Positions 13,001 through 28,683 of a DNA stretch of 36,091 nucleotides are shown one piece after another. Both the position numbers and the translations under genes were made by a program. The DNA is taken from assembly GCA_018645535.1 (NCBI GenBank), contig JABGWN010000052.1:1-36091 (forward strand), in the 5' to 3' direction. The notes under the pieces are model-generated. The model worked only from the letters and a program-made list of their open reading frames with translations. It ran no database searches and was not told the DNA's origin. Within the stretch, counting starts at the first letter, position 1. Each line of letters starts with the position of its first letter. The DNA is from Methanobacteriota archaeon (GTDB taxonomy: Archaea; Thermoplasmatota; Poseidoniia; Poseidoniales; Poseidoniaceae).

Positions 13001-13259
13001 CCGGAAGTTCAAGTTGGATGTGTCCAAAGTGACCTGGTGATTCGTCATACTTACAGTTGTCAGTTGGACAAACCAAACCAGGTTCGATAACACCCATGTG
13101 GGAGTCCATCAATCCTTGATTGTATGGGCGTCCATCATCCTTGTAGGTGTCAGGAGTCTTAACTTCGACAGATGACATCTTACGGATTTCACTCGGGTCC
13201 ATTAGGCTGAAACGAATCTGTGCGATTCGCTTTGGGATTAGTGTCGTTCTTCTGCTCAT
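10023..13259 (-). CDS. rpoA1: DNA-directed RNA polymerase subunit A' (with lineage-specific insertion and acidic C-terminal tail)
   Basis: Zn motifs CPTDNCK...GHFGH and CNSC...CMHCG are present. So are [28 protein letters not shown], the catalytic [12 protein letters not shown], and [26 protein letters not shown] overlap with rpoB at 13256-13259. At 1078 aa it is longer than the roughly 880-900 aa I recall for typical A'. Confidence 0.95.
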
Positions 13260-16200: not shown

Positions 16201-16876
16201 TTTTCTGTGAGAAAATCTTCGCAACTTCAGTACGCTTTGCAGTGCGCTTGTTGATTTCAACAGTTACTCTGTTTGGTGCAAGATCTTCCATGGAGATGAG
16301 GACACGTTCTGTACCGTTGATGATGAAGTAGCCTCCTAGGTCAAGTGGGTCTTCGCCACGAGAGCGAAGAAGTTCTGCAAGAAGAGCAGAATCTTCGCTT
16401 GACTTACTCGGCTCGAGTGTGCGGCCATCAGCGATGTGGCTTGGGTGAAGATGACAGCGTTGTGAACGGACCATGATCGGAATTGAACCGACTTGTACAC
16501 CTTCTTCTGGGAAAGATGCGACACCGTTTCGATAGATTGTGAAATCGATGCTGACCGGGGATTGGTAGGTCAACTTACGAAGTCTGCATTCCATAGGGGA
16601 AGCATGGTGGTAAGAACCGTTAGCTTCACGGATATTTGGTGCACCGAGTTTAATGTCTTTCAAGCGAATGACGATTTCTTGGTCAGCAACGTCGAGTTTG
16701 ATGTAGCCGCCAAGGTCATCGATGATCTCTTCGTCAGTTCCGACACGGATGTTACGAATGATTTTCTCCATTCGAGAGAGTTGGTTGACTGTGGATGGGA
16801 TACAGTCGTTGTATGAAGCAAGTTGGTGGTTTACTAGGCTTCGTTCTTTGAAAAATGATTCAATAATTTCTTGCAT
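13256..16876 (-). CDS. rpoB: DNA-directed RNA polymerase subunit B (unsplit)
   Basis: Blocks seen: SYNDCIP...; GYFIINGTERVLIS.EDLAPNRV; ETPEG.NCGLVKN; GDKFASRHGQKGV; PDLIINPHAIPSRMT; the Zn-ribbon-region C-terminus; and GGLRFGEMERDCLIAHGA. The start is placed at ATG 16876 (GGAG 9-12 nt upstream, 16 nt after the rpoH stop). The track start at 16924 is a TTG inside rpoH. Confidence 0.95.
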   Translation of the reverse strand: MQEIIESFFKERSLVNHQLASYNDCIPSTVNQLSRMEKIIRNIRVGTDEEIIDDLGGYIKLDVADQEIVIRLKDIKLGAPNIREANGSYHHASPMECRLRKLTYQSPVSIDFTIYRNGVASFPEEGVQVGSIPIMVRSQRCHLHPSHIADGRTLEPSKSSEDSALLAELLRSRGEDPLDLGGYFIINGTERVLISMEDLAPNRVTVEINKRTAKRTEVAKIFSQKNGMRKPLTVEKRRDGMLMVKVSTAGTTPIPVVLLMRALGIENDQEVFTAISGPQETFKYIVANINEVNGDEKQEGDYDVKSTNEAYEWLQKKFAAGQQKEYREARVNQLLDRELLPHLGDQTEDRKKKAIFLGRIVRQVLEMALNDKEPNDKDHYANKRVRLAGDLIEDLFRVSSGQLARDLKYQLERHHNRKRELKITSCLRPDVLSSKILHALATGNWVGGRSGVSQLLDRTTYLASLSHMRRVTSPLVRSQPHFEARDLHPTQWGRLCPNETPEGQNCGLVKNAAQMIDVSEEVDPHEVRERLDELDVYQPDDWTDGDRVHVNGDIYGMHKKGKNLVNHFKNARRRGTIPSEVSIRHDLENRDIFINTDKGRILRPLLVLYDGTPRLENHHLVDLAAGNITFKDLVNDGIVEWVDAEEEEDLYIAPRPFVLPESVPDGKFSGRPVTHEKIRWVNLGQPGESHAVLEAEVRMPNGSIEVAKLEVPLLFGAEHTHVEIDPQLVLGVCASLIPYPEHNSTPRVTGGTAMVKQSLGLPSANYRLRPDTRAHILHYPHRSIVRTAAMKTTNFDERPGGQNFIVAIMSLHGYNMQDAVIMNRASVDRGLGRSTFNRTYNAERRRFPGGQVEEIEKPGNKLTEVKGLKPTEAYSHLEDDGLPLPETYLEGGNVLVGKTSPPRFLEESNSGAFLMAQERRESSMLVRHGEKGWVDNVYVTESDNSGRLVRVMVRSHKIPEVGDKFASRHGQKGVIGRLVEPEDMPFTQDGVVPDLIINPHAIPSRMTVAHVLEMIGGKVGAMEGRRIDGTAFRGEKESSLRDGLVRNGLDHTGREIMVNGETGESYPAEIFVGCIYYQRLHHLVSSKIHARSRGRVQILTRQPTEGRARQGGLRFGEMERDCLIAHGASMVIKDRLLDESDGIDMFVCAQSGHIAWYDPKRRTYVSPVHGDGAEVYKVQTSYAFKLLLDEMKSLGVAMRLELEDRR

Positions 16877-16892
16877 AATATCAACTCCAGCC

Positions 16893-17540
16893 TCAGCTGC
16901 CCTCCACAATAAGCCGGTAAGCAACAGCAGTACCAGCAGATTTGGAATGTCTCTTTACTTTCAGAACACGGTCTGCAATCCATCCCGCTGCGAGTGGGCG
17001 GTGTTCAGGATTTGCTGCAAGTGTTGCATTGTCGAGGAGTTCACAAGCCTCTTTGATGGCTTGAACAACGGGGTCTGAGATTAGGACTTTCGGGAGAAGT
17101 TCCTTTGCAAGACGTGGTTTTCCGTCTTCGTCGAGTTCTTCAAGACCCCAAGGAAGGAGTTCTTCCTTTTCCAAGTCATATTGCTCTTGTTCGCTGATGT
17201 TTGCCTCGCCGAGAAGTTCCTGATGAGGGACCAGTTCGTGGTTCAGGGGGTTGAAACGACTGGTTGCTTCAGGACGATCGAACTCGTCGATTGCTTTGGA
17301 GGAAATTGTGATTTTCTTGCTTCGCTTGTTACGAGAACGGCGGTTCCCTTGCTCGGCAATAATTTGCATAACTTTGGTGAAGGATTCGCTGTCTTTTGCG
17401 ATTCCAAGAATTTTTGCGACGTCGTCAGCAGGCATGGCCTTAATGTCGGCCATGTTTCTGTCCGTAGCCAATTTGTGGGCGTATTCGTCGGATACTCCGA
17501 GTTCGATTAGTCGCTTTTTTGTTGCGCTCTTTACTACCAT
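16893..17540 (-). CDS. rpoH: DNA-directed RNA polymerase subunit H, expanded (~215 aa) with N-terminal extension and two internal insertions
   Basis: The C-terminal part matches the RpoH/Rpb5 C-domain: HELVPHQELL ... LPKVLISDPVVQAI ... DRVLKVKRHSKSAGTAVAYRLIV. It is in first position of the rpo operon. ATG 17540 gives an [10 protein letters not shown]-terminus identical to that of RpoA''. The track start at 17555 is GTG. Confidence 0.85.
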   Translation of the reverse strand: MVVKSATKKRLIELGVSDEYAHKLATDRNMADIKAMPADDVAKILGIAKDSESFTKVMQIIAEQGNRRSRNKRSKKITISSKAIDEFDRPEATSRFNPLNHELVPHQELLGEANISEQEQYDLEKEELLPWGLEELDEDGKPRLAKELLPKVLISDPVVQAIKEACELLDNATLAANPEHRPLAAGWIADRVLKVKRHSKSAGTAVAYRLIVEGS

Positions 17541-17587
17541 CTCATTCAACCCCACTTCGCCCCAACGTCGTACTGCAGCGCATCAGG

Positions 17588-17661: not shown

Positions 17662-17757
17662 AACGTTGCTTCTTGGGCTTTCAATGCGAACTACCACCCC
17701 TTCATATACCTTACCGATGAGATTGCACCCATTGAATTGATTGGAAAGTCTCTTCAA

Positions 17758-19206
17758 ATGCCGACATTAGGGCAAAACGATTGGAATATGTTTGATGAAA
17801 AGAAAGCATTTCGAGAAATCGAATTGTTGGGTGGTGAAGCCAGAGAAATTCACTGGAAGAATTTCGACTTGATCGTACCTCATACTGTATATCCACCAAG
17901 AGAGGATACCGATCTTCTCGCAAGTGTCCTCGAGAAGGTCACACCCTTTGCCAAAAAGCGGCTTCTCGAAATCGGCAGTGGCTCGGGCGCTCTCTCGATT
18001 TTAGCAGCATCTATTGGATGGGAAGTAGAAGCCTGTGACATCAATCCGTTTGCAGTTGCTGCAACCCGATTCAATGCTCTTGAAAATAAGTTCCAAATCA
18101 TATCATCAGAGGGAGGTATCGGCCCGACCAAAGATGGACGTTCTTCACAATGGATGAAACCCGGCACCTATGACCTCGTGATGTGGAACATGCCTTACAT
18201 TCCTGCAGAGGAGATTGAAGAGTATCTTGGACCGTTGGAAGATGCGGCTTTGGTCGACACACATCCATCAGGTTTGTTGAGCAAGTTTGCTGATATGATG
18301 CGACGATTCCAAATTATTTCCCCTACAGGTCTCGCTCTCATCTTGTGCAGAGAGAACATCGGGGCGCTTCGAACACAAGACATACTTCTTGCAAATGGAT
18401 TAGCAACCCGAAAAGTATCAAAACGTACATTCGATGATGATGAAACCATCCAAGTACTTGCAGCATGGCATCCGTTTGTGAAGTCTAAGAAACAACAAAT
18501 GCATACTGTCCCTTCAACAAATTCGGAAATGCTTGAAGGATCCTACAAGCCAGGCGATTCCCTCCGAACAAGATTCCAAACTGGCGGAAAAGGACGCCAT
18601 GGTCGAACATGGGATGACCATCTTGACTCCTTCAAGGGAAGTTGGAAACTCAATCCTGACCGAATACCGCACATTTCGTCCCAATTGCAGTGCAAAGTTG
18701 CTCTTGAGATTGCTTCATTGCTGCAATCGATGGCGGCTGAGGAAGATGTCCTTCGAGTAAAGTGGCCAAATGATCTCCTCGTGCGGGACAGTAAATCCAA
18801 ACAATGGAAAAAAGCAGGGGGTATTCTCTTCCAATCACTCTCGAGAGGGACAGAACAATCTCTTGTTCTCGGCATCGGGATTAACACAAAAACAACCACT
18901 GATGTTCAAGGACGAGGCTCATTAGAAGAAATAGGGGTTGACCTCGACAATACTGAACTTTTTACCCTTCTTGACACCATTGTATCTTCCCTGTTTGAAA
19001 ACAAATCCAACTTGATGAATGTCTCGAGTGAAAGCACAGAACTCAACCTTGATTTATTACTTAGAGATTGCATCTATAGAAATAAAGAATGCACAGTTCG
19101 TGGTGTTTCTGATGAAGGAGAACTTCAAATTGAATCAGACAAAGGAGAATCCTTCGATATCTCTGATGATCTTAGTCTTCTTTGGCCTCATCTTCAACTT
19201 CAATAA
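17758..19206 (+). CDS. Fusion protein: HemK/Mtq2-like class I SAM-dependent methyltransferase (N-terminal) + biotin--protein ligase BirA-like catalytic and C-terminal domains
   Basis: MTase part: LIVPHTVYPPREDTDLLASVL, the SAM motif LLEIGSGSGALSILAA, and an NPPY-like VMWNMPYIP. BPL part: STNSEML..., the signature RFQTGGKGRHGRTWDD, KWPNDLLV, KKAGGILFQS and LGIGINT. One uninterrupted frame. The first ATG is at 17758; the track start at 17737 is TTG. Confidence 0.75.
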   Translation: MPTLGQNDWNMFDEKKAFREIELLGGEAREIHWKNFDLIVPHTVYPPREDTDLLASVLEKVTPFAKKRLLEIGSGSGALSILAASIGWEVEACDINPFAVAATRFNALENKFQIISSEGGIGPTKDGRSSQWMKPGTYDLVMWNMPYIPAEEIEEYLGPLEDAALVDTHPSGLLSKFADMMRRFQIISPTGLALILCRENIGALRTQDILLANGLATRKVSKRTFDDDETIQVLAAWHPFVKSKKQQMHTVPSTNSEMLEGSYKPGDSLRTRFQTGGKGRHGRTWDDHLDSFKGSWKLNPDRIPHISSQLQCKVALEIASLLQSMAAEEDVLRVKWPNDLLVRDSKSKQWKKAGGILFQSLSRGTEQSLVLGIGINTKTTTDVQGRGSLEEIGVDLDNTELFTLLDTIVSSLFENKSNLMNVSSESTELNLDLLLRDCIYRNKECTVRGVSDEGELQIESDKGESFDISDDLSLLWPHLQLQ

Positions 19207-20179: not shown

Positions 20180-21469
20180 ATGGAAGAAGAGACGCCACTT
20201 ACCAAAATGGCCATCATTCGGAGTCTCCTCTCACCATCAACAGCCCCGCACCTCATTCTTCTCGTGATTGCAGCAAGCCTCCTTCATATCATGGCCAAGG
20301 TTGGATCAGAACAGGCGGCAAGCTTCGGATTTATTGCCTTCTCTACAGCCTATATTTTGCTCGCACCTGCATCCAACAAGGAAGTGTTTCGCAAATTAAT
20401 CACATTTGAAAAACAAGAGGATTCGTCATTTGCTGATTCAATGAAGCAGCGATTAAAAATCCTAATCGTACCCACTTCCTTTGGTTTGGTCTTGTGGGGA
20501 ATCATGTCTTTTACCATGGGCGAAGGTAATACCCTCTCTGACGTTGGAACAATCATACCCCCTACGCTGGGTTTCTTATTCGTGGCTTGGGCTGCAGCAC
20601 AAGGATGGTTTTTTGCTTATGCAACCTCAAATTCGATTAAGTCACCAGAGACAGGGACTGTTAAGGATACCTCTACGCACTCCCCAATTCCGTCTTTGAT
20701 AACAACTTCAACGCTGATGGTTGCTATGACGATTCTCGTCACAGAAGCCTTCAGATTCAGCCTTGGAAACAGTTCTTTTAGCGTCTGGCCATATGTTGCT
20801 TCATTTGCAGTGTTTGCCATCAGCGTGAGGATTACCTGGCCCCTTCGGCAAAAAGCCTCTGCCCATACTGCAACGCATGCAGTTGCAAAACGATGGTTTC
20901 ATGTGACTCAACTTTTCATCACTTGGCACGTTCTAAGCATCGTGCGTAGCATCGATTCTGCTTCATCGAATACACTCATATTTATCGAAGAACTCGTATT
21001 GATGATCTTGACTGTTTTCATGGCTATTTGGGCACTAACGAGTAAAGCAGACGGACGCAAATCCACCCTTTTCACCAAAGATAACGCCTTGTTCTGGGGT
21101 GTAGCCTTTGGATATGCATATGCTGGAAGTGTGGCAATGATCACTTCAGTTTTCGATGACTTGACTGCAGTCCTCATCGGAGGACACATCCTTGTTGTTG
21201 CAACAGTTGTATGGGCACAACGCTCGCTACTTGACTCAAGAATCAACCGTATGTTCAAGGATTTTGATATCAAAGAGTCTGTCGAATCAATCGATATCGC
21301 ACCTCTAAAAGAGGAAGAGACTGAGGAGACGACACCTGAAGAAATCCAAACTTCAACAGAAGAAGATGAAACGTTAGAGAGTATAGGCGACCCGGTCGAT
21401 TGGAACCAAAAGCCAGAATCTATTGGTGACGAAACAAACTGGGAAGAGGATGTTGAACTTCTGGATTAA
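20180..21469 (+). CDS. Hypothetical polytopic membrane protein with long acidic C-terminal tail
   Basis: 429-aa ORF with about 9-10 hydrophobic helices. The tail is rich in E/D/T and contains a duplicated ESIGD...W motif. I recognise no family. Confidence 0.55.
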   Translation: MEEETPLTKMAIIRSLLSPSTAPHLILLVIAASLLHIMAKVGSEQAASFGFIAFSTAYILLAPASNKEVFRKLITFEKQEDSSFADSMKQRLKILIVPTSFGLVLWGIMSFTMGEGNTLSDVGTIIPPTLGFLFVAWAAAQGWFFAYATSNSIKSPETGTVKDTSTHSPIPSLITTSTLMVAMTILVTEAFRFSLGNSSFSVWPYVASFAVFAISVRITWPLRQKASAHTATHAVAKRWFHVTQLFITWHVLSIVRSIDSASSNTLIFIEELVLMILTVFMAIWALTSKADGRKSTLFTKDNALFWGVAFGYAYAGSVAMITSVFDDLTAVLIGGHILVVATVVWAQRSLLDSRINRMFKDFDIKESVESIDIAPLKEEETEETTPEEIQTSTEEDETLESIGDPVDWNQKPESIGDETNWEEDVELLD

Positions 21470-22374
21470 TCGTCTGCAATTCCTGATAAAAGCATTACAA
21501 CTCGGATAACTCCCTCGAGTTCGGGAGTTACTCGAGCGCCAAGAATGACTTGTGCTTCTGAGTCTACTGCTGATGTCAACGCCGTTGCAATCTCATCGAC
21601 TTGTCCGATTGTCATGCCGAGTCCTCCTTCAATTTGAAGCAGACAACCTCGTGCGCCGCCGACGTTCATAGGAGCCAGTGGTGCTTTGATTGTGGCTTCA
21701 AATAATTCGTTCAAGTTATCGTGATGCCCCGAACCGACCAGCATAGTCGAGGCTCCAGGCTGACGTACGATTGCCCTCAAGTCCATTAGATCTAGATTGA
21801 TTAAACCCATTGAGAGTAATGTTCGAACCAAGCCATCGACCAAATCCTCGACCCATTCAGAGCCCATACTCCAATCCTTCCCTCTTGTACGAGCCTGTCG
21901 CGCTAGACGTTCCAATGAGAGTTGCACACATACATCCGAATGATGTTCAAGACGTTTTAGTTCGGTTGTAGCAATTTTTAGGCGAGTAGGTTGTTGGGAA
22001 AACGGCAAGGCTGCAATAGAGAGAACTGTTGCTCCGTGAAGTTTAGCTTGTCGTGCAAATTCATGCGAGGCCCCGGTTCCTGTCCCTCCACCAAGTCCGG
22101 TAACGAGAATCACAAGTTCAGCGTTCTCTAAGAATGGGCGTGTACGTGAGGCAAGGCCTCGCATCCTCTGCTCGGCCAGTGGAGGCAAGGCAGCGCAACC
22201 AAGTTGGTCCAGAGTGTGCCCAAGTCTCATGATGTGTCCGTCTTCAGTTTGAGGAAACGATTCATCCGCATCGATCATGAGAAGAGATGCGCCTCCGCCT
22301 CTTGCATGTGCCCTAGAAGCCCATGTGCATCCTAGACCACCAATCCCAACAATGAGGATTTGCGAGGACTCCAT
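21466..22374 (-). CDS. Divergent short FtsZ/tubulin-superfamily protein
   Basis: The tubulin signature LVTGLGGGTGTGAS is intact. The protein is collinear with FtsZ throughout: ILIVGIGGLG (G-box region), LSIAALPF, GLINLDLMDLRAIV (cf. INLDFADV), ASTMLVGSG, GARGCLLQIEGG, IRVVMLLSGI. A strong SD (AAGGAGGGTTC) precedes ATG 22374. At 302 aa it has no C-terminal linker or tail. Confidence 0.75.
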   Translation of the reverse strand: MESSQILIVGIGGLGCTWASRAHARGGGASLLMIDADESFPQTEDGHIMRLGHTLDQLGCAALPPLAEQRMRGLASRTRPFLENAELVILVTGLGGGTGTGASHEFARQAKLHGATVLSIAALPFSQQPTRLKIATTELKRLEHHSDVCVQLSLERLARQARTRGKDWSMGSEWVEDLVDGLVRTLLSMGLINLDLMDLRAIVRQPGASTMLVGSGHHDNLNELFEATIKAPLAPMNVGGARGCLLQIEGGLGMTIGQVDEIATALTSAVDSEAQVILGARVTPELEGVIRVVMLLSGIADD

Positions 22375-22409
22375 GAACCCTCCTTGGGCACAACGCCCTT
22401 GAACTTACC

Positions 22410-22712
22410 TTACTTTTCGATAAATCGCATGTATCGACGACGAGCATCTCGAGCCCAAGCATTATCTGGCTCCAACCCGAGAACTCGATCATAATATCGA
22501 ACAGCGGTCTCGAATTCGGATAGATGACGACCGTAAAGGTGCCCCAGATTAGAGAGTACGGGAATGCAATCATTGTCCACTTCAAGCATTTGTAACAGGA
22601 GTTTTTCTGCAGCACCAAGACTGTTTCGAATCATGAATTCTTCAGCCTCGTCGAGTTGCTCAAGTTGTTCGGTTGATAGGTCATAGATGTTGTCAAATGG
22701 TGTCTCGGCCAT
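22410..22712 (-). CDS. Small TPR-like repeat protein (~100 aa)
   Basis: MAETPFDN...AEKLLLQMLEVDNDCIPVLSNLGHLYGRHLSEFETAVRYYDRVLGLEPDNAWA fits about two TPR units (the LG.LY...A...Y...L...P.N pattern). ATG 22712; the longer track ORF from 22811 has no supporting features. It lies 35 nt upstream of the FtsZ-like gene on the same strand. Confidence 0.5.
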   Translation of the reverse strand: MAETPFDNIYDLSTEQLEQLDEAEEFMIRNSLGAAEKLLLQMLEVDNDCIPVLSNLGHLYGRHLSEFETAVRYYDRVLGLEPDNAWARDARRRYMRFIEK

Positions 22713-22855
22713 GCTTCTGCGAGGCAGGTTGAAGCAATGAATCCTTGCTTTGTTAAAATTTGAAGGCAAAACGCTACACTGCAAGACAATAATATTGTGC
22801 TCCACCAACAATGTTTAAGGGGTCCTTGTTAGTCGAGAACCCATAGGGTATAGCC

Positions 22856-23680
22856 ATGCTAACAACCTCATTCACCAAGCGACGCCCCATTGTCGTCGCA
22901 GTGTTGCTCTTGCTCCTCTTACCAGGGCTCGCCACGTCTCTGCCGACAGGTATTGGCGGTCAACAACAGAACGGAGGGGAAACAATCGACGATGTTGCCA
23001 AAGAAGGTTGCCTTTGCCACAATGGCGTTCCCGCAAATGAGGTTCAAATTATTCTTGATGGCGTTCCATTCGCATGGACTGCTGGAGAAACCTACGATTT
23101 GGATCTCCACATTATTGGCGGGCCAGATGCAGGAGGTCAATACTCGGCAGGATTCGCAATGAGAGTATCGAGCGGAATTCTTTCCGGCATTGGCGCTGAC
23201 AACTGGCAAGAAGATGAACAATCACTCACCCACACTTCTGCATCAGCTGCTGAGTCCGATCGAATGTGGGAAATCTCATGGGTCGCTCCTGCGGAAGGTG
23301 AAGGAACAATCGTTTTCTGGATAACCGGGAACAGTGTTAACGGCGACGGAGGCCTAGGAAATCAAATCGAAGATATGTGGAATCAACTTACGTTTGCACT
23401 CATCGAAGGCGACGAAGAAAGTCTGGCACGAGGCACACGAACTCTCTTCGCTGGTGATGGAAACGTCAGCCCGCCTGAACCATCATCTCTCGGAACTGAC
23501 CTTCACCACATGGGAGCCAAACTCCGAGCCCACTGGCTTGGATTACTGGGCTTCGGAGCGGTCATCATGTGCATTGTGTTTGCAGGACTCATGCTCCGCT
23601 ATGGCTTCTCTACTTCTTACGAAGGGCGAAGCAACCAACTCCGACTACGGTACAAACTCATGAGAAGAGGTGATCAGTGA
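22856..23680 (+). CDS. Secreted, C-terminally anchored Reeler/DOMON-like beta-sandwich protein
   Basis: Signal peptide (RRPIVVAVLLLLLLPGLATS). The order and spacing of GCLCHNG ... AGETYDLDL.I.G ... AGFAMRVSSG ... LTHTSAS ... ISWVAPAEGEGTIVFWITG resembles the Reeler-domain consensus (C..H.G / GF..qA / tH. / .W.AP). C-terminal TM helix WLGLLGFGAVIMCIVFAGLML. The family call is tentative. Confidence 0.45.
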   Translation: MLTTSFTKRRPIVVAVLLLLLLPGLATSLPTGIGGQQQNGGETIDDVAKEGCLCHNGVPANEVQIILDGVPFAWTAGETYDLDLHIIGGPDAGGQYSAGFAMRVSSGILSGIGADNWQEDEQSLTHTSASAAESDRMWEISWVAPAEGEGTIVFWITGNSVNGDGGLGNQIEDMWNQLTFALIEGDEESLARGTRTLFAGDGNVSPPEPSSLGTDLHHMGAKLRAHWLGLLGFGAVIMCIVFAGLMLRYGFSTSYEGRSNQLRLRYKLMRRGDQ

Positions 23681-24126
23681 TGTACGACGATACAATTGAG
23701 AATCTACTGAAGGGTGTTGCTGATGGTTCCATCTCTGTCAAAGATGCACGTACTGCTCTCGAAGGCGTTGAGCTCACAGAAGAGCAAATGGATGCTGCAA
23801 TCGACCATGGAGTCCACAATGTTGCAGAATCAGGTACAATCGTTAGCGCTTCCCTCGCACCATCGGGAGCATCTTACCTCACTATGTTCTTCTTCGCTTG
23901 GGGAATCTTTTGGATATGCTATTGGTCCTTTTCACTCATTTACGGATTGGCCAATGATTGGGATCAACAGAACATGGCATTCCATCTTGCCATGGTCCTA
24001 ACAACGCTCATACTTATGGGGCTGGTTTATCTGAAATTCATCATACCAGACACCATTATCGTAAAACATTCTCAGAACAAATATGTTCCTGAACATCAGA
24101 AAGACTGGAAGGAGTACAAGTGGTGA
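23680..24126 (+). CDS. Hypothetical small membrane protein (soluble N-terminal ~55 aa + 2-3 TM helices)
   Basis: ATG 23680 overlaps the upstream stop (TGATG). The TM segments are YLTMFFFAWGIFWICYWSFSLIYGL and FHLAMVLTTLILMGLVYLKFII. It lies between the Reeler-like and Rieske genes. Confidence 0.5.
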   Translation: MYDDTIENLLKGVADGSISVKDARTALEGVELTEEQMDAAIDHGVHNVAESGTIVSASLAPSGASYLTMFFFAWGIFWICYWSFSLIYGLANDWDQQNMAFHLAMVLTTLILMGLVYLKFIIPDTIIVKHSQNKYVPEHQKDWKEYKW

Positions 24127-24131
24127 TTTCT

Positions 24132-24974
24132 ATGGCAAAAGATTACGATTTAGTTATCCCCGAGTCAAAGACTGGGGCACTCGAAGTTGCAGGAAACGTC
24201 ATCAATCGAAGACAGTTCTTGCGCTACGGGTTTAACACCGCTACAGGCGTTCTTGCTGCATCATTGGGCGTTCTTGGATTTGCATCTATTCTCCTCCCGC
24301 CTGGTGGAGGCACTGCAGGTGACCTGTCTGTCAAATTCTGGGCAAAGGGTCGAGAAGACACAGCATGGTATGGTGCAAAGCACTTACAGACGATGACGAA
24401 GGCTGACTTCGTTGCAGAGGCTGCAAAGACAAACACAGTCACATCTGGAGCCTCAGGTGTTTGGAATGGCGTCCCTGTTGTCGTCACATATGTTGAAAGC
24501 TCAAAGTGGGAAGGAACACCAGAAGACAACAACAAAGCCCGATTCATCATGATGGAAGGTTACGATGAAAGCGGGAAATATGTTGGCCACTTCGAAGACA
24601 TGGTTGCTCAAGACGAGCGAATTTATCCTTCTGACGATCTCATCATGGTTTTCGGAAGATGCACTCACCTTTGTTGCATCCCAGGATGGCAACTCGTTTC
24701 GAACCAATACACAGATGACTCATGGACACCAGGAGGTACTGATGACGGAGGAACCAAACTGTTCTGCATCTGCCACTCATCTCGATTTGATACAACAGCT
24801 CTTGAGATGAATACAAACAGAAACCGTTCAAACGGTTCAACATTCAAGTATGCTGGTGTTCGAAAAGCTGGAGGGCCTGCTCCCGTTGGACTTCCGCTTA
24901 TTCCGATCGTTCTGAACAATGATGTCGTAGAGGGCATTACCGATTATGTCGACTGGCTGACATACTGCGACTGA
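24132..24974 (+). CDS. Rieske [2Fe-2S] iron-sulfur protein with twin-arginine signal/anchor
   Basis: The RRQFLRYG Tat motif is followed by a hydrophobic helix. Cluster boxes are CTHLCC (box I, C-x-H) and CICHSSRFD (box II, C-x-x-H). ATG 24132 is preceded by GGTG; the track start at 24120 is GTG. Confidence 0.85.
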   Translation: MAKDYDLVIPESKTGALEVAGNVINRRQFLRYGFNTATGVLAASLGVLGFASILLPPGGGTAGDLSVKFWAKGREDTAWYGAKHLQTMTKADFVAEAAKTNTVTSGASGVWNGVPVVVTYVESSKWEGTPEDNNKARFIMMEGYDESGKYVGHFEDMVAQDERIYPSDDLIMVFGRCTHLCCIPGWQLVSNQYTDDSWTPGGTDDGGTKLFCICHSSRFDTTALEMNTNRNRSNGSTFKYAGVRKAGGPAPVGLPLIPIVLNNDVVEGITDYVDWLTYCD

Positions 24975-24984
24975 GGTGAATAAT

Positions 24985-25851
24985 ATGACAACAATGTTCT
25001 GGATTCTTTGGTTCTTTATTGCCTTCATTATCGTCTTAGTGGCCTTCACTCTCCGTAAAGAGACTGAAGAAATGCCCCGCCGTGAAATTCTACGTGCAGT
25101 AGAATCAACAGGAGGCATGGGTGTTTCCGAACGAGCATTCCTGTGGGTGTTTTCTTGGATGGATACCCGATTCCGTATTCAAGATTACTGGAACATGTCA
25201 AAAGGTGCCTATTACAACATGCATCGACAAATGCCTCTCACACACGCCGAGAAATACAAACTTCGAATCATTTGGTATTGGTACCCGCTCTACTGTCTTG
25301 GTGGAATTTCCTTCCTGAGTTTCATCGTTCTCGTCATCACAGGAACCGTTCTTGGAATTTACTATGTTCCAGGTGGAGAAGGCGATCCTTCGCCTGCGTA
25401 TGCCTCGATGGAATTCATTATGCTTGAGCTCCCATTCGGGTACATTATCAGAGCAGTGCACCATTGGACGACGCACTTCATGGTAGCATCAGTCTTCCTA
25501 CACATGTGTCGCGTCTACTTCACAGGAGCATACCGAAACCCTCGTGAACTAAACTGGTTAATCGGTGTAGCGCTCATGGCTCTTACAATCGTCTTTGGAT
25601 ACTCTGGCTATCTCCTTCCGTGGGACAGTCTCGCATACGGTGCTGCTGTCATTGGAATTAACCTTGCCAATTCATCTCCATTGATTGGAAAATACATTGC
25701 AACTCTTTTGTTTGGAGGTTCTTCACTGACGCCTCGAACCGTAACCCGTATGTATTTCATACACGTCTTTATTCTACCAGTGATAGTGACCACATTGATC
25801 ATTATTCACTTGTTTATTGTTTGGGTACAAGGCATTGCGGAGCCGCATTGA
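24985..25851 (+). CDS. Cytochrome b6-type (N-terminal half of cytochrome b) with extra N-terminal TM helix
   Basis: Blocks seen: YCLGGISFLSFIVLVITGTVLGIYYVP; helix B RAVHHWTTHFMVASVFLHMCRVYFTGAY; GYSGYLLPWDSLAYGAAVI; helix D RMYFIHVFILPVIVTTLIIIH. It ends ...VQGIAEPH like b6. GAGGTG lies 6 nt upstream of ATG 24985. Confidence 0.9.
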   Translation: MTTMFWILWFFIAFIIVLVAFTLRKETEEMPRREILRAVESTGGMGVSERAFLWVFSWMDTRFRIQDYWNMSKGAYYNMHRQMPLTHAEKYKLRIIWYWYPLYCLGGISFLSFIVLVITGTVLGIYYVPGGEGDPSPAYASMEFIMLELPFGYIIRAVHHWTTHFMVASVFLHMCRVYFTGAYRNPRELNWLIGVALMALTIVFGYSGYLLPWDSLAYGAAVIGINLANSSPLIGKYIATLLFGGSSLTPRTVTRMYFIHVFILPVIVTTLIIIHLFIVWVQGIAEPH

Positions 25852-25866
25852 TACGAGGTGTGACAA

Positions 25867-28683
25867 ATGGGATTAATGGAAAATTTTGGTAGAGTAGCTA
25901 CATCCTACATGGATGAGAAAGCAAAGCTCGAAGAAGCAGGCGAGAAGCGAACACGTACACGAATGGGTCACGGATTCTGGCCTCATGAAGTGCTGCGAGA
26001 TACAATTCTCTTTTCATTCATGGCAGCAGTTCTTCTGTTCTATGCGTGGTTGATTCCACCGCCACTTCACGGTGCTGCAGATCCATATGCGCAAGCAGGA
26101 TTCGTATTCCCTGATTGGTACGTTCTGTTCTCATACGGATACTTGCGTTGGGGAGAATATCTCCCTCAATTTACAGTCCCTACAGGATTCATTGGTGATA
26201 TTGTTGGCCAACCTGTATTTGCATGGAACGCTGCATGGTGGGGCGCTGCTCTAACTGGAATCCCTATTGGCATCCTCACACTCCCACCTCTAATTGGAGG
26301 ACGTGAAAAGAGACCTGTCGAAGACCCGTGGTTTGCCGCTGCAGGAGCAGTTTATTTGGCACACATTTGGTTTATCTCTGTATTCTCGATCAACATCTTC
26401 CTTGAACTGTACGGGAAAAACCGGTCTGATTATTGTAAACTGGATTCACATGGAGACTTACTGTGTGGTACAAGAGCGCCTTGGATGGCAGATATTTTCA
26501 ATGCAGTACCTTGGATTCTGACGGGTTTATTGTTGTGGATTGTGATTTACTTCATTGCCCGAAACGTGATGGTCAAGGCCTGGGGTTCTGGATTCACCCC
26601 TGCTCATGGAAAGCGCCTCATCGTCGGCGCACTGGTTATCTCTGCCGGAGCATCTGTTGCAACATTCGACACATACGACAACGGTTTCTGGGAAGCTGGC
26701 GGTCTTTTGACCATCAAAGGGCTAACGCACGATTATTATCCTGAACTGGAAGCAATGCGAACTCAACCAACTGATGTACACGTACACGAAATAAATGAGT
26801 TCACTGATGACCGGGGGTACTCCGATGATGGTATTGTGCCTGCCGCTGCATGGACAGACTGGCAAATCTACCAGCCAGCGCGAGAAGTGCTTATCGATTT
26901 CAGTGACGCAAATAATCACCAAGATGCGGAAGAAGGCCTCAATGCAGCTGGAACAACAGCATCCTTCTATGGTGGAGACGGATTCACAATGAGTGGAACA
27001 TTCACTGTAACAGAAGATACGAACAACTTCCCAGACGGACATCATGAATCTGTTGAATCACTTACAACGGACGTCGTTTGTGAATATCGATCGAGTGAGC
27101 GCAAAATCGATGGTGTCAATACTGCAACAATGCTCACCAGTTCGCTCAGCGTCACAGATGCGAAGGGGAAGGTCATGACCTCCTTCTCCGGATGTGTAGG
27201 GGATGAGATTACTCTTGAACCAGGTGTCTACGACTACGAATACAGTCTTCAAGCATCAGGAGCTCTTGCACAGAACAATTCGATCATGACCGAAACAACA
27301 TTCTCAATTCGTGCATATCAACCACTCCTTCTATGGAACAGCAATGCTGGCCCACTCGCTGGAACTGTTGTCAATCTCAGTGATACCGCTACAATAGCAG
27401 CATCCTCTGGAACATACAGCGATGTTGTCAACCCATCATACCACGTCAACCCGAAGGCACTCGATGCAAAACTCACGTATGCTATGTTCATTCCATGTTT
27501 GACATTTGGTGCAATCGTCGTCGTTGTCTTGAGATCAATGGCACGAGGATATGAATTCGAAATGAACAAGTGTTACGGTTGCGATTTGTGTGACGACGCT
27601 TGTCCAGTTCGATTGTTCAATGGTGGAGACAAACTCAACATCATTTACAATTCGTGGAACAATGAAGACGATGGTGTACCAATGTACTCCTGTCTGACGT
27701 GTACTGCCTGTACTAATGCATGCCCACAACTCGTCAACTATGACTCCTATGTTGATATTCGTAGAAGCCTCATCGTAGGCGGTCCGGCGGCTGAAATACC
27801 TCACACAGTGTTGCAAGCAGTCTTGGCTGCAGAAGCTGAAGAAGCATCAAACGAGGACTTCATCCCAGTAGAAGAGTACCCAATCACATCCAATGTTGGC
27901 TATTATCCAGGATGCGTTGACTATCTCGACCAAGAGATGGTCTTCTCCCACGTCAATGAAGGAGATATGAATCTTGGAGATTCGACAACTGCTGCCTTCA
28001 CTCTCTTCGAAGAAATGGGGCATGATGTATCGTACCTCGGCCGTGATTTCTTGAAGTGCTGTGGACACGATCAAAAGTGGCAAGGACTCACTGAAGTATT
28101 TGATAAACTCAAAGCCTACAATCAAAAGAAGATTGAAGCATCAGGCATTGATACACTCGTCTCATCATGTGCTGAATGTTTCCGAACCTTTGCTCGAGAT
28201 TACGAACTTGAAGGAGTCAAGGTCATGCACACAACAGAGTATCTCATCGAAAGCGGATTCGACATGGAACTCTCAACTGATGCTACAACAGTTACCTATC
28301 ACGACCCATGTCGACTTGGTCGTCAAATGGGAATCTATGATGAGCCTCGTGAACTGATCAACGCTGTAGAAGGTGTAGATCTCGTCGAGATGGAACACAG
28401 TGGAGAGGACGCTATGTGCTGTGGCGTCTCCAGTATGATGTCATGCAACGAAAATGCACGTGCTCTACGTGTGGCTCGTATGGAAGAAATCAAGTCCACT
28501 GGTGCTGACACCATGCTCACCTCATGCCCGAAGTGTGTTTCACACTTTGAGTGCTTGAAGTTTGAAGGTGATGAGCGATACGAAGACATTGAGATTCTCG
28601 ATGTTGTATCCTTCCTCGCACGAGAAGTTAACGCAAAGAAGAGCGAATTGACTCAACCTACACTCGGTGAAGTTGAAGCTTGA
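25867..28683 (+). CDS. Fusion: cytochrome b C-terminal half/subunit IV-like membrane domain + ~270-aa extracytoplasmic domain + HdrD/GlpC-type module (2x[4Fe-4S] ferredoxin motifs + 2 CCG domains)
   Basis: The FWPHEVLRD...PDWYVLFSYGYLRW (PEWY-type Qo motif) region has TM helices through residue ~265. Another TM helix is at ~536-555. Ferredoxin motifs are CYGCDLCDDACP and CLTCTACTNACP. The CCG domains are GC(683)...KCCGHD(731/732)...SCAEC(768/771) and PC(815)...MCCGVS(851/852)...SCPKC(887/890). It is a single 938-codon frame. GAGGTG lies 8 nt upstream of ATG 25867. Confidence 0.85.
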   Translation: MGLMENFGRVATSYMDEKAKLEEAGEKRTRTRMGHGFWPHEVLRDTILFSFMAAVLLFYAWLIPPPLHGAADPYAQAGFVFPDWYVLFSYGYLRWGEYLPQFTVPTGFIGDIVGQPVFAWNAAWWGAALTGIPIGILTLPPLIGGREKRPVEDPWFAAAGAVYLAHIWFISVFSINIFLELYGKNRSDYCKLDSHGDLLCGTRAPWMADIFNAVPWILTGLLLWIVIYFIARNVMVKAWGSGFTPAHGKRLIVGALVISAGASVATFDTYDNGFWEAGGLLTIKGLTHDYYPELEAMRTQPTDVHVHEINEFTDDRGYSDDGIVPAAAWTDWQIYQPAREVLIDFSDANNHQDAEEGLNAAGTTASFYGGDGFTMSGTFTVTEDTNNFPDGHHESVESLTTDVVCEYRSSERKIDGVNTATMLTSSLSVTDAKGKVMTSFSGCVGDEITLEPGVYDYEYSLQASGALAQNNSIMTETTFSIRAYQPLLLWNSNAGPLAGTVVNLSDTATIAASSGTYSDVVNPSYHVNPKALDAKLTYAMFIPCLTFGAIVVVVLRSMARGYEFEMNKCYGCDLCDDACPVRLFNGGDKLNIIYNSWNNEDDGVPMYSCLTCTACTNACPQLVNYDSYVDIRRSLIVGGPAAEIPHTVLQAVLAAEAEEASNEDFIPVEEYPITSNVGYYPGCVDYLDQEMVFSHVNEGDMNLGDSTTAAFTLFEEMGHDVSYLGRDFLKCCGHDQKWQGLTEVFDKLKAYNQKKIEASGIDTLVSSCAECFRTFARDYELEGVKVMHTTEYLIESGFDMELSTDATTVTYHDPCRLGRQMGIYDEPRELINAVEGVDLVEMEHSGEDAMCCGVSSMMSCNENARALRVARMEEIKSTGADTMLTSCPKCVSHFECLKFEGDERYEDIEILDVVSFLAREVNAKKSELTQPTLGEVEA

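What the first reader, a model, noticed from the sequence alone, without database searches (positions are those of the whole stretch)
21466..22712. Divergent, tail-less FtsZ/tubulin paralog with altered GTP-contact loops, operonic with a mini-TPR protein
The 302-aa protein keeps the GGGTGTG tubulin signature and FtsZ collinearity through the C-terminal domain. By my by-eye alignment to E. coli FtsZ, three regions differ. The G-box GGGGGN reads GGLGCT. The GLGAGANPE loop reads QLGCAALPP. The IPND(K/R)L synergy-loop region reads QLSLERL. There is also no C-terminal linker or anchor-binding peptide. This suggests a non-canonical, possibly GTPase-impaired or partner-dependent filament protein. The preceding ~100-aa TPR protein, 35 nt upstream with a strong SD before the FtsZ-like ATG, is a plausible adaptor. 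The role of the pair is unknown; membrane remodelling, division or positioning of the neighbouring respiratory complex are possibilities.
Basis: partly seen in the sequence, partly recalled or inferred. Interest (0 to 1): 0.65.

Follow-up and report, generated by a model that had tools for sequence, protein, structure and literature searches.

The report
Tail-less, remodelled FtsZ2 of Poseidoniales
The most abundant surface-ocean archaea (Marine Group II) keep a normal FtsZ1 division protein, but their second FtsZ has lost both tails and had most of its GTP pocket rewritten. It always sits behind a tiny TPR gene, which suggests that part of their division machinery is wired differently from model archaea.

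Summary
Window 21466-22374 (-) encodes a 302-aa FtsZ-fold protein (E=2e-34 to M. jannaschii FtsZ; AF2 model TM 0.90). Loops T1, T2, T3, T5 and T6 are altered and there is no N- or C-terminal tail. It lies 35 nt behind a 100-aa TPR gene, with an AAGGAGG SD.

Two corrections:
- The 'IPNDKL' stretch is the T6 base-contact region, not the synergy loop. The true T7 loop (NxDxxD) is intact in 125 of 126 relatives, so the synergy-loop argument for 'GTPase-impaired' fails.
- It is not a stray extra paralog. It is an order-wide Poseidoniales (MGIIa and MGIIb) lineage that groups with archaeal FtsZ2. This rests on HMM affinity, NJ, and published ML trees that place it next to MGIII FtsZ2 on a very long stem.

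A canonical tailed FtsZ1 exists in 76 Poseidoniales species genomes. SepF is reported in 4 of 5 genomes.

The TPR gene is conserved upstream in all six genomic contexts examined (the window plus five related loci). In Thermoplasmata, ftsZ2 is preceded by a cdrS-like RHH gene instead.

Best reading: a fast-evolving FtsZ2 ortholog that still forms filaments but has swapped its SepF-binding tail for a TPR adaptor. The role in division and the adaptor role are inferred. This is a new variant of a known kind. It is present in published datasets but has not been described.

The parts
21466..22374 (-). Tail-less, remodelled FtsZ2-type gene (302 aa). T4 GLGGGTGTG and T7 N193/D195/D198 are kept. T1, T2, T3, T5, T6 and H7 are replaced by family-specific residues. 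There is no N-terminal extension and no C-terminal linker or GID peptide.
22375..22409 (-). 35-nt intercistronic spacer with Shine-Dalgarno AAGGAGG (22385-22379), 4 nt before the ATG. In related loci the spacer is 8-27 nt with purine-rich SD-like runs.
22410..22712 (-). 100-aa mini-TPR protein, first gene of the pair. It has about two TPR repeats plus a basic amphipathic C-terminal helix. LEPDNAWARDxRR[RK]Y is invariant in six orthologues.
22713..22855 (.). 143-nt divergent intergenic region shared with the respiratory operon. An A/T-rich TATA-like element (aaattttaac, about 22761-22752) lies 40-49 nt upstream of the TPR ATG. The promoter assignment is inferred only.
   Evidence: sequence read directly
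20180..21469 (+). Convergent 429-aa multi-pass membrane protein with an acidic, Trp-containing C-terminal tail. Its stop overlaps the FtsZ-like stop by 4 nt. It is present in 5 of 6 contexts and weakly conserved. It is listed as context and a possible partner, not a demonstrated part.
22856..28683 (+). Divergently transcribed respiratory operon: choice-of-anchor-V secreted protein, DUF7318 membrane protein, Rieske protein, cytochrome b, and a 938-aa CCG/4Fe-4S protein. It is always adjacent to the TPR/FtsZ pair, including in loci where the other flank is rearranged. Context only.

Best explanation
This is the Poseidoniales (Marine Group II) version of archaeal FtsZ2. It was inherited vertically and evolved very fast on the stem of the order.

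**What is shown**
- It kept the FtsZ fold, the T4 phosphate loop, and the T7 loop that completes the GTPase site of the next subunit.
- It lost both terminal tails, including the C-terminal peptide through which archaeal FtsZ binds SepF.
- Almost all residues lining the top of its own nucleotide pocket are replaced: T1, T2, T3, T5, T6, H7.
- It is co-transcribed behind a strongly conserved 100-aa TPR protein. That gene occupies the position where other Thermoplasmatota have the RHH regulator gene cdrS.
- Canonical tailed FtsZ1 exists in Poseidoniaceae genomes, and SepF is reported in the order.

**What is inferred**
- The protein still binds nucleotide and forms head-to-tail filaments, with altered hydrolysis or switching kinetics.
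- It still serves the FtsZ2 role of constriction in wall-less archaea, next to the FtsZ1/SepF ring.
- The TPR protein replaces the lost tail as the adaptor. It would tie the filaments to the membrane through its basic amphipathic C-terminal helix, or to another divisome or membrane protein.
For: **Fold and family**
- E=2e-34 to MjFtsZ1.
- AF2 model pLDDT 85, pTM 0.86. Foldseek TM 0.90 to 2vap.
- A mixed profile (31 family plus 12 canonical FtsZ rows) scores FtsZ at 355 bits, against 55 or less for CetZ, TubZ and tubulin.

**Real, constrained gene**
- More than 120 clusters at 90% identity, all 295-338 aa.
- It occurs in both MGIIa and MGIIb.
- Family-specific replacements are themselves conserved: GCAALPP is the dominant T3 motif, and T7 NxDxxD is present in 125 of 126.

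**FtsZ2 affinity**
- All 14 tested members score 28-49 bits higher on an FtsZ2 HMM than on an FtsZ1 HMM.
- NJ bootstrap support: family+FtsZ2 51%, family+FtsZ1 0%.
- Published ML trees place the clade next to MGIII FtsZ2, with UFBoot 70 and 83 and a stem of 1.87 subs/site (PMC9871819 supplement).

**Second FtsZ in the lineage**
- Canonical FtsZ1 with a tail (EHR75921.1) is found in 76 species genomes of Poseidoniales.
- Five Poseidoniales genomes list 2, 1, 3, 2 and 2 FtsZ hits, with SepF in 4 of 5 (PMC8178401 Suppl. Data 1).

**Operon partner**
- The TPR gene is immediately upstream in the window and in the five related contexts examined (L001/L002 near-identical, L003-L006).
- Spacers are 8-35 nt with SD-like runs, and a motif is invariant across orthologues.
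- Thermoplasmata ftsZ2 is instead preceded by a 75-aa RHH gene.

**Relevance of the lost tail**
- H. volcanii SepF binds FtsZ2, not FtsZ1 (PMC8187382).
- Archaeal SepF binds the FtsZ C-terminal GID peptide (PMC8178401).
- FtsZ2 correlates with the absence of a pseudomurein wall (bioRxiv 10.1101/2020.06.04.133736).
Against: - No functional data exist for any member, and Poseidoniales are uncultured.
- Orthology to FtsZ2 rests on weak support: UFBoot 70-83 and NJ 51%. One of three published trees puts the clade with Nanoarchaeota, which is long-branch behaviour.
- The rewritten pocket could abolish GTP binding. The H7 acidic residue aligned with E. coli D187 is Ser in one large subclade.
- TPR-FtsZ binding was not modelled. 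The TPR single-sequence model is of low confidence (pLDDT 64).
- The whole region is syntenic across the order, so neighbour conservation is partly inherited gene order.
- I could not show FtsZ1 and the tail-less gene on one contig myself. Co-occurrence in the same genome rests on the published table.
- Arco, a spatial regulator that co-occurs with FtsZ1, is absent from Poseidoniia. Their division system is atypical in other ways too.
Confidence: 0.5

Rival explanations
1. A neofunctionalised cytoskeletal filament that is no longer part of the divisome. Like CetZ, a former division tubulin would have been recruited for cell shape, membrane remodelling, or organising the adjacent membrane respiratory complex. 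The TPR protein would be its cargo or membrane adaptor. FtsZ1 and SepF would then divide the cell alone.
For: - The SepF-binding tail and the cdrS partner are both lost.
- The stem branch is extreme and evolution stayed fast within the order, as expected after a change of function.
- Linkage to the Rieske/cyt b operon is conserved even where the other flank is rearranged.
- There is a precedent for a TPR protein encoded with tubulin-family genes that links filaments to membranes: Bklc/BtubC (PMC5372463).
Against: - Archaea without pseudomurein generally need FtsZ2 for constriction, and no other FtsZ2 was seen in the order.
- Divergent adjacency to an operon is weak evidence of shared function.
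- The gene order is largely inherited across the order.
Confidence: 0.22
2. A partner or regulator of FtsZ1 polymers rather than an autonomous filament. With an intact T7 face and a rewritten nucleotide face, it would add onto FtsZ1 and complete FtsZ1's GTPase site, but present a non-canonical top surface. It would act as a cap, or as the second subunit of a tubulin-like heteropolymer.
For: - The asymmetry is clear. T7 is invariant, while T1, T2, T3, T5 and T6 are all replaced.
- It has no tail of its own, whereas FtsZ1 keeps one.
Against: - The replaced residues are conserved as a coherent set, which fits a functional pocket.
- T4 and the T1 glycines are retained.
- H. volcanii FtsZ1 and FtsZ2 are described as having distinct roles in ring assembly and constriction, though that study does not test copolymerisation.
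- Nothing here tests heteropolymerisation.
Confidence: 0.12
3. An independent extra paralog, arising from an old duplication or a horizontal acquisition and unrelated to the lineage's FtsZ2. The true FtsZ2 would have been lost.
For: - Placement is unstable among published trees.
- The family is about equally far from FtsZ1, FtsZ2 and bacterial FtsZ (Kimura distances 1.78, 1.69 and 1.81).
Against: - The FtsZ2 HMM preference is consistent in all members.
- The sister position to MGIII FtsZ2 matches the species tree.
- No close relative exists outside Poseidoniales among 1.84 billion representatives. There is a gap from E=1e-48 to E=1e-36 before generic FtsZ.
Confidence: 0.1
4. A decaying gene or annotation artefact with no function.
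For: - It fails the NCBI FtsZ equivalog cut-off (127 against 295 bits).
- NCBI names it 'hypothetical protein'.
Against: - The ORF is intact and of constant length in more than 120 clusters across two families.
- 27 columns are invariant even against canonical FtsZ.
- The fold prediction is confident.
- The SD and operon partner are conserved.
Confidence: 0.02

Closest known systems
Archaeal FtsZ2 (e.g. H. volcanii HVO_0581; Thermoplasmata cdrS-ftsZ2 pair)
   Same: - Same fold and domain pair (Tubulin + FtsZ_C), with T4 and T7 motifs kept.
- Best HMM affinity is to FtsZ2, and published trees place it beside MGIII FtsZ2.
- It is the second FtsZ next to a canonical FtsZ1 in a wall-less euryarchaeon.
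   Different: - It has no N-terminal extension and no C-terminal linker or GID peptide, so no canonical SepF binding.
- T1, T2, T3, T5, T6 and H7 are rewritten.
- It scores 141-223 bits on an FtsZ2 HMM, against 463-610 for members.
- The upstream gene is a TPR protein, not the RHH regulator CdrS.
- Its genomic neighbourhood is different.
Canonical FtsZ (TIGR00065; M. jannaschii FtsZ1 structure 1FSZ/2VAP)
   Same: - Predicted structure superposes at TM 0.90.
- It is collinear from S1 to S10.
- It has the tubulin signature GGGTGTG and the NxDxxD T7 loop.
   Different: - Identity is only about 27-30%.
- It scores 127 bits against the 295-bit equivalog cut-off.
- The Asn residues of T1 and T6, the GAGG of T3, and the Gln of T2 are all absent.
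BtubA/B with Bklc (BtubC) in Prosthecobacter
   Same: A tubulin-superfamily filament gene is encoded in one operon with a TPR protein. In Prosthecobacter that TPR protein binds the filaments and links them to membranes (PMC5372463).
   Different: - Bklc is a much larger kinesin-light-chain-like TPR protein.
- BtubA/B are tubulin-type, not FtsZ-type.
- The organism is bacterial.
- The resemblance is an analogy of architecture only. No homology between the TPR proteins was tested.
CetZ (archaeal cell-shape tubulins)
   Same: Both are archaeal FtsZ-derived proteins that have diverged from division FtsZ and lack the SepF-binding peptide.
   Different: - A profile that includes the family hits CetZ structures at only 36-55 bits, against 355 for FtsZ.
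- The FtsZ_C domain is recognisable here.
- Its taxonomic range is different.
FtsZ-like families FtsZl-1/FtsZl-2 (Tubulin_2 proteins; own knowledge of Makarova & Koonin 2010, and the 'FtsZ-like' outgroup in PMC9871819)
   Same: Both are divergent FtsZ relatives with conserved operon partners and a proposed role in membrane remodelling.
   Different: Those are far more divergent, carry Pfam Tubulin_2, and one lacks the C-terminal domain. This protein matches Tubulin and FtsZ_C above threshold and aligns end to end with FtsZ.

Membership tests
FtsZ (tubulin/FtsZ superfamily, FtsZ branch) | Two-domain FtsZ fold (GTPase domain + FtsZ_C) | tested here: met
   Pfam Tubulin and FtsZ_C are both above gathering score. 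The AF2 model has pLDDT 85. Foldseek gives TM 0.90 to 2vap.
FtsZ (tubulin/FtsZ superfamily, FtsZ branch) | T4 tubulin signature GGGTG[ST]G | tested here: met
   GLGGGTGTG at residues 93-101. The motif is conserved in the family as [GA]LGGGxG[TS]G.
FtsZ (tubulin/FtsZ superfamily, FtsZ branch) | T7 synergy loop NxDxxD | tested here: met
   N193/D195/D198 are invariant in A1 and A2. The motif is present in 125 of 126 family members.
FtsZ (tubulin/FtsZ superfamily, FtsZ branch) | Canonical nucleotide-contact loops: T1 GGGGxN, T3 GxGAGxxP, T6 Asn | tested here: not met
   T1 is GGLGCTW, T3 is LGCAALPP, and T6 is LSLERL. These replacements are conserved family-wide.
FtsZ (tubulin/FtsZ superfamily, FtsZ branch) | NCBIfam TIGR00065 equivalog score of at least 295.2 bits | tested here: not met
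   The score is 127.3 bits. Canonical archaeal FtsZ scores 353-421 bits.
FtsZ (tubulin/FtsZ superfamily, FtsZ branch) | Disordered linker plus conserved C-terminal anchor-binding peptide (GID motif in archaea) | tested here: not met
   All 126 members have 12 or fewer residues after the last strand, and the window protein has 4. The motif definition comes from PMC8178401.
Archaeal FtsZ2 | Groups with FtsZ2 rather than FtsZ1 or bacterial FtsZ | tested here: inconclusive
   The FtsZ2 HMM is preferred by 28-49 bits in 14 of 14 members. NJ support is 51%. Published ML trees place it next to MGIII FtsZ2 in 2 of 3 trees, with UFBoot 70-83. The long branch limits confidence.
Archaeal FtsZ2 | cdrS (RHH) gene immediately upstream (parD/cdrS-ftsZ2 arrangement) | tested here: not met
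   The upstream gene is a TPR protein in all six contexts. Thermoplasmata ftsZ2 loci L007 and L008 do have a 75-aa RHH gene upstream.
Archaeal FtsZ2 | Binds SepF and drives constriction | not testable with these tools
   This is known only for H. volcanii (PMC8187382). Here the binding peptide is absent.
CetZ | Sequence affinity to CetZ rather than FtsZ | tested here: not met
   There are no CetZ hits at E<=0.01 with the single sequence. The profile scores 3zid at 55, 4b45 at 39 and 4b46 at 36 bits, against 355 for FtsZ.
FtsZl-1/FtsZl-2 (Tubulin_2) | Pfam Tubulin_2 domain | tested here: not met
   The Pfam scan at E<=0.01 lists only Tubulin, FtsZ_C and a weak ThiF hit.
TPR proteins (upstream gene) | TPR repeat profile above the Pfam gathering score | tested here: inconclusive
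   Six TPR families hit residues 52-88 at E=1.8e-5 to 9e-4, all below their cut-offs. Orthologues carry weak or faint TPR marks. The model is all-helical with five helices.

The most novel reading that the evidence does not exclude
Poseidoniales may have turned the two-FtsZ archaeal divisome into a tubulin-like asymmetric system. The tail-less FtsZ2 derivative has an intact catalytic T7 face but a rewritten nucleotide face. It could co-assemble with tailed FtsZ1 into obligate heteropolymers, or form a separate, slowly hydrolysing filament. In either case a dedicated mini-TPR adaptor would replace the universal C-terminal-peptide/SepF mode of membrane attachment. That would be a new solution to Z-ring anchoring in the ocean's most abundant archaea.
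Probability: 0.1. Interest if true: 0.85.

Novelty: new variant of a known kind. Interest (0 to 1): 0.55.

Why it matters
Marine Group II archaea dominate surface-ocean archaeal plankton but are uncultured, so their cell biology is known only from genomes.

In the model archaeon, FtsZ2 is the constriction protein and SepF is its membrane anchor through the C-terminal peptide. Here the FtsZ2-lineage protein has no peptide at all, a rewritten GTP pocket and a new, tightly conserved TPR partner, while FtsZ1 and SepF stay canonical.

If the inferred wiring is right, it shows that the FtsZ-tail/SepF module, thought to be ancestral, can be replaced. It also yields a compact two-gene system (about 1.25 kb) that can be tested in vitro or in Haloferax.

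There is a practical annotation point too. NCBI's pipeline calls these genes 'hypothetical', so surveys that rely on TIGR00065 will report Poseidoniales as lacking FtsZ2.

Tried and rejected
- **Looking for the second FtsZ by homology search.** Searches seeded with Thermoplasmata FtsZ2 (P0135) and FtsZ1 (P0221) returned only non-Poseidoniales names in the top 120. This approach was uninformative because of the listing cap.
- **Long 'QNDRLL' FtsZs.** Sequences of 590-790 aa high in the representative search (P0142, P0195, P0236, P0258) were considered as candidate Poseidoniales FtsZ1. I rejected this because P0258 lies in a bacterial context with EF-Ts, RRF and Tex.
- **High-scoring 744-840-aa hits.** P0123 and P0126 are tandem double FtsZ fusions of Altiarchaeales with canonical loops. 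P0134 (840 aa) is a similar tandem double FtsZ with canonical loops whose source I did not look up. None is a family member.
- **Same-genome co-occurrence from the PMC9871819 dataset.** Each genome appears only once after their redundancy filtering.
- **Literature searches.** Searches for FtsZ together with Poseidoniales, MGII or Thalassarchaea found no paper discussing this protein.
- **Is the upstream gene a diverged RHH/CdrS?** No. It shows no RHH signal and is all-helical and TPR-like.
- **Is the downstream membrane protein an obligate partner?** I downgraded this idea. The gene is absent in L005, the tail is missing in L006, and conservation is poor.
- **First NJ script.** It timed out and was rerun with numpy.
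- **Fold search of the TPR model.** Not attempted, because pLDDT 64 is too low to give meaningful matches.
Full report
**1. Observation**

The window is archaeal. It carries rpoH, rpoB, rpoA' and rpoA'' at 8458-17555 (-), and a Rieske/cytochrome b/CCG-FeS operon at 22856-28683 (+).

ORF 21466-22374 (-) encodes 302 aa, with Pfam Tubulin and FtsZ_C above threshold. phmmer against PDB sequences finds only FtsZ. The best hit is M. jannaschii FtsZ1 at E=2e-34, aligned over residues 4-300.

- T1: GGLGCT against GGAGNN.
- T3: LGCAALPP against LGAGGNP.
- LSLERL against IPNEKL.
- T4 GLGGGTGTG is retained.

- T2: NTD.Q becomes DAD.S.
- T5: PFxxE becomes PFxxQ.
- H7: F..xD[ED] becomes W..G[SA][ES]W.

The protein starts five residues before strand S1 and stops four residues after S10. 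Both the N-terminal extension and the C-terminal linker and peptide of archaeal FtsZ are therefore missing.

The upstream ORF (ATG 22712 to stop 22410, 100 aa) gives sub-threshold TPR hits. It is separated from the FtsZ-like ATG by 35 nt, with AAGGAGG four bases upstream of that ATG.

The IPND(K/R)L stretch is the T6 base-contact region. The T7 synergy loop is GLINLDLMDL (N193, D195, D198), and it is intact.

**2. A conserved family, not a one-off**

The word-indexed search returned more than 120 clusters at 59-97% identity. Nearly all are 299-338 aa. Where a name was given, it was Poseidoniales, Poseidoniaceae or Poseidonia. NCBI calls them 'hypothetical protein' and JGI calls them 'FtsZ'.

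The exhaustive search of 1.84 billion 50%-identity representatives found only about five full-length family representatives: P0121 (53%), P0124 (41%), P0125 (41%) and P0129 (37%). After these there is a gap, from E=1e-48 to E=1e-36, before generic FtsZ at about 30% identity. P0125 represents Thalassarchaeaceae (MGIIb).

In 126 full-length members:
- T7 NxDxxD is present in 125.
- The commonest T3 variants listed (95 of 126 members) all carry GCAALPP.
- T1 is G.GG.GC.W in about 120.
- T6 is L[SDE]L[DE]RLA in nearly all.
- No member has more than 12 residues after the last strand.

The unusual residues are thus under selection.

The window protein scores 127 bits against TIGR00065, whose cut-off is 295. 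Canonical archaeal FtsZ scores 353-421. This explains the 'hypothetical' annotation.

An AlphaFold2 model built on a 43-row alignment is confident (pLDDT 85, pTM 0.86). It superposes on M. jannaschii FtsZ at TM 0.90.

A mixed profile of 31 family rows and 12 canonical FtsZ rows scores FtsZ structures at 237-355 bits. CetZ reaches only 36-55, TubZ/RepX 43 and tubulins 29 or less. So it is FtsZ-proper, not CetZ, TubZ, tubulin or a Tubulin_2 'FtsZ-like' protein.

**3. Which FtsZ is it, and is there another?**

The closest canonical sequences are Thermoplasmata proteins of the P0135 type, at 34% identity. In their loci they are preceded by a 75-aa RHH gene. That is the cdrS-ftsZ2 arrangement described for FtsZ2 (PMC8178401: 'ftsZ2 frequently with parD'; PMC7439475, by title).

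I built HMMs from FtsZ1-type, FtsZ2-type and bacterial sets.
- All 14 family members tested prefer the FtsZ2 model, by 28-49 bits over FtsZ1 and 22-52 bits over bacterial FtsZ.
- Their absolute scores are only 141-223 bits. True FtsZ2 members score 463-610 bits on that model.

In NJ analysis with 500 bootstraps:
- The family is monophyletic in 100% of replicates.
- It joins FtsZ2 in 51%, FtsZ1 in 0%, and bacteria in 6%.
- Its mean corrected distance to any other group is 1.7-1.8. The FtsZ1-FtsZ2 distance is 1.0.

The supplementary alignments and trees of Santana-Molina et al. 2023 (PMC9871819) already contain the family. Members there include MBA88363.1 (MGIIa-K1), RAH16766.1, PXF22034.1 (Thalassarchaeum betae) and MBF93264.1.
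- In the Fig. 4 tree, the family is a clade on a stem of 1.87 substitutions per site. It is sister to the MGIII FtsZ2 clade (UFBoot 70), inside a Thermoplasmata group.
- A second tree is similar (UFBoot 83).
- A third tree puts it with Nanoarchaeota, a typical long-branch effect.

The MGIII sequence OIR21729.1 has canonical loops (GGAGNN, GRGAGGDP, LDNEKL, NVDFAD) and a tail. The remodelling therefore post-dates the split between MGII and MGIII. The main text of that paper does not mention these sequences.

The same supplement gives a canonical Poseidoniales FtsZ1, EHR75921.1 (389 aa). Its motifs are GVGGAGCN, GRGAGGDP, GMGGGSGTG, IPNERL and NLDFED, and its tail ends …NRHIEFVN.

Scanning one genome per GTDB species with that sequence found full-length matches (79-100% identity) in 76 genomes. 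Where the record title gives a taxon below phylum level, it is Poseidoniales or Poseidoniaceae. One is the 2.06-Mb MG-II chromosome scaffold CM001443.1.

Pende et al. 2021 list five Poseidoniales genomes with 2, 1, 3, 2 and 2 FtsZ homologues, and with SepF in four of the five. EHR75994.1 and EHR75921.1 come from the same genome.

My conclusion is that the order has a canonical FtsZ1, usually with SepF, plus this tail-less protein, which is best read as its FtsZ2 orthologue. I did not personally place both genes on one contig.

**4. Context**

I examined the window and six fetched loci, of which L001 and L002 are near-identical. Two of the related loci hold relatives only 37-41% identical to the window protein.

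In all of them a 100-112-aa TPR-like ORF lies immediately upstream. The spacer is 8-35 nt and contains purine-rich SD-like runs. The annotated overlap in L003 is a mis-called start.

The TPR orthologues share the invariant motif LEPDNAWARDxRR[RK]Y and a conserved C[IV]P.L..LGHL.GR core. They are better conserved than the FtsZ partner.

The C-terminal helix is basic and amphipathic (hydrophobic moment 0.68). That fits either a TPR capping helix or a membrane-targeting helix.

The pair is always divergent from the same respiratory operon: choice-of-anchor-V protein, DUF7318, Rieske protein, cytochrome b and a CCG/FeS protein. This holds even in L005 and L006, where the other flank is rearranged.

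The convergent membrane protein (20180-21469) is present in five of six contexts. It is poorly conserved and its acidic tail is not universal.

**5. Mechanism**

*Shown:*
- FtsZ fold.
- Intact T4 and T7.
- Rewritten T1, T2, T3, T5, T6 and H7.
- No tails.
- An operon with a conserved TPR gene.
- Coexistence in the order with FtsZ1 and SepF.

*Established elsewhere:*
- Archaeal SepF binds the FtsZ C-terminal GID peptide (PMC8178401).
- In H. volcanii, SepF pulls down FtsZ2 but not FtsZ1 (PMC8187382).
- FtsZ2 is associated with constriction in archaea lacking pseudomurein (bioRxiv 10.1101/2020.06.04.133736).

*Inferred:*
- The Poseidoniales protein still polymerises head to tail. Its T7 face and the T4 and T1 glycines argue for nucleotide-dependent assembly.
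- Its hydrolysis or switching behaviour is altered.
- It can no longer be anchored by SepF in the canonical way. The co-transcribed TPR protein supplies the missing attachment.

The acidic H7 residue aligned with E. coli D187 is Glu in the window protein but Ser in one subclade. Nucleotide specificity is therefore uncertain.

The rival explanations are loss of the division role (CetZ-like neofunctionalisation), action as a cap or hetero-subunit on FtsZ1, and an independent paralog.

The nearest architectural precedent for a TPR gene in an operon with tubulin-family genes is Bklc/BtubC of Prosthecobacter, which links Btub filaments to membranes (PMC5372463). That is an analogy, not tested homology.

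**6. Novelty and verdict**

The sequences are in public databases and in at least two published FtsZ datasets. My literature searches found no paper that describes the loss of the tails, the pocket remodelling or the TPR partnership.

It is a new variant of a known kind (FtsZ2), not a new class. Interest is moderate to good (0.55). The organism group is ecologically dominant. The change hits exactly the FtsZ-SepF interface thought to be ancestral. The two-gene module is easy to test. Against that, all functional statements remain inferences.

Noticed in passing
window 17737-19206 (+): A 489-aa fusion of a PrmA/MTS-type methyltransferase domain (residues ~58-160) with a biotin/lipoate protein ligase domain (260-383). 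The fusion is conserved in related loci (453-488 aa). In L002 it is called as two genes.
   Followed up: partly
window 22856-28683 (+): An unusual complex-III-like operon. It encodes a secreted 'choice-of-anchor V' domain protein with a C-terminal TM anchor, a DUF7318 membrane protein, a Rieske protein, cytochrome b, and a 938-aa protein with 4Fe-4S dicluster and two CCG (HdrD-like) domains. The last protein is 1334-1344 aa in the deeper-branching loci L005 and L006.
   Followed up: partly
window 16893-17555 (-): RpoH (Rpb5_C) is 220 aa. It has a ~100-aa N-terminal extension, and the Pfam match spans residues 101-216 for a 73-position model, which implies an insertion. Related loci have 194-216 aa, and L002 splits it.
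   Followed up: no
window 4714-8061 (-) and 3140-4663 (-): A 1115-aa protein with a thrombospondin type-3 repeat lies directly downstream of the RNA polymerase operon. Next to it is a SelO protein adenylyltransferase homologue in an archaeon.
   Followed up: no
P0123, P0126: Altiarchaeales encode 744-826-aa proteins made of two complete, canonical FtsZ modules in tandem, joined by a low-complexity linker. P0134 (840 aa, source not looked up) has the same architecture.
   Followed up: partly
L009 (GCA_037445455.1, JBBIKM010000002.1), gene at 10001-12130: A 709-aa FtsZ with an archaeal-type T1 (GCGGGGNN), a QNDKL T6 motif and a long C-terminal extension sits in a clearly bacterial context (S2, EF-Ts, RRF, Tex). 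Similar 590-790-aa proteins (P0142, P0195, P0236) are labelled 'bacterium'.
   Followed up: partly
PMC9871819 supplementary trees: MAH41214.1 is labelled Alphaproteobacteria IN39 (GCA_002689105.1). It is almost identical (branch 0.002) to a Poseidonia FtsZ1, so it is probably a contaminating contig in a bacterial MAG.
   Followed up: no
P0148, P0162, P0175, P0230: Other short FtsZ-like proteins (315-347 aa) end right after the last core strand. Some have altered T1 or T3 loops, for example P0148 (GFGTERD) and P0230 (GCGGAGIT). Tail loss has therefore happened in other, unidentified lineages too.
   Followed up: no
L003 6001-7017: The deposited gene call (338 aa) starts inside the TPR gene. The family alignment shows the real start is the internal MESSQILIAG…, about 304 aa. 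Several 328-338-aa database entries are probably the same mis-call.
   Followed up: yes
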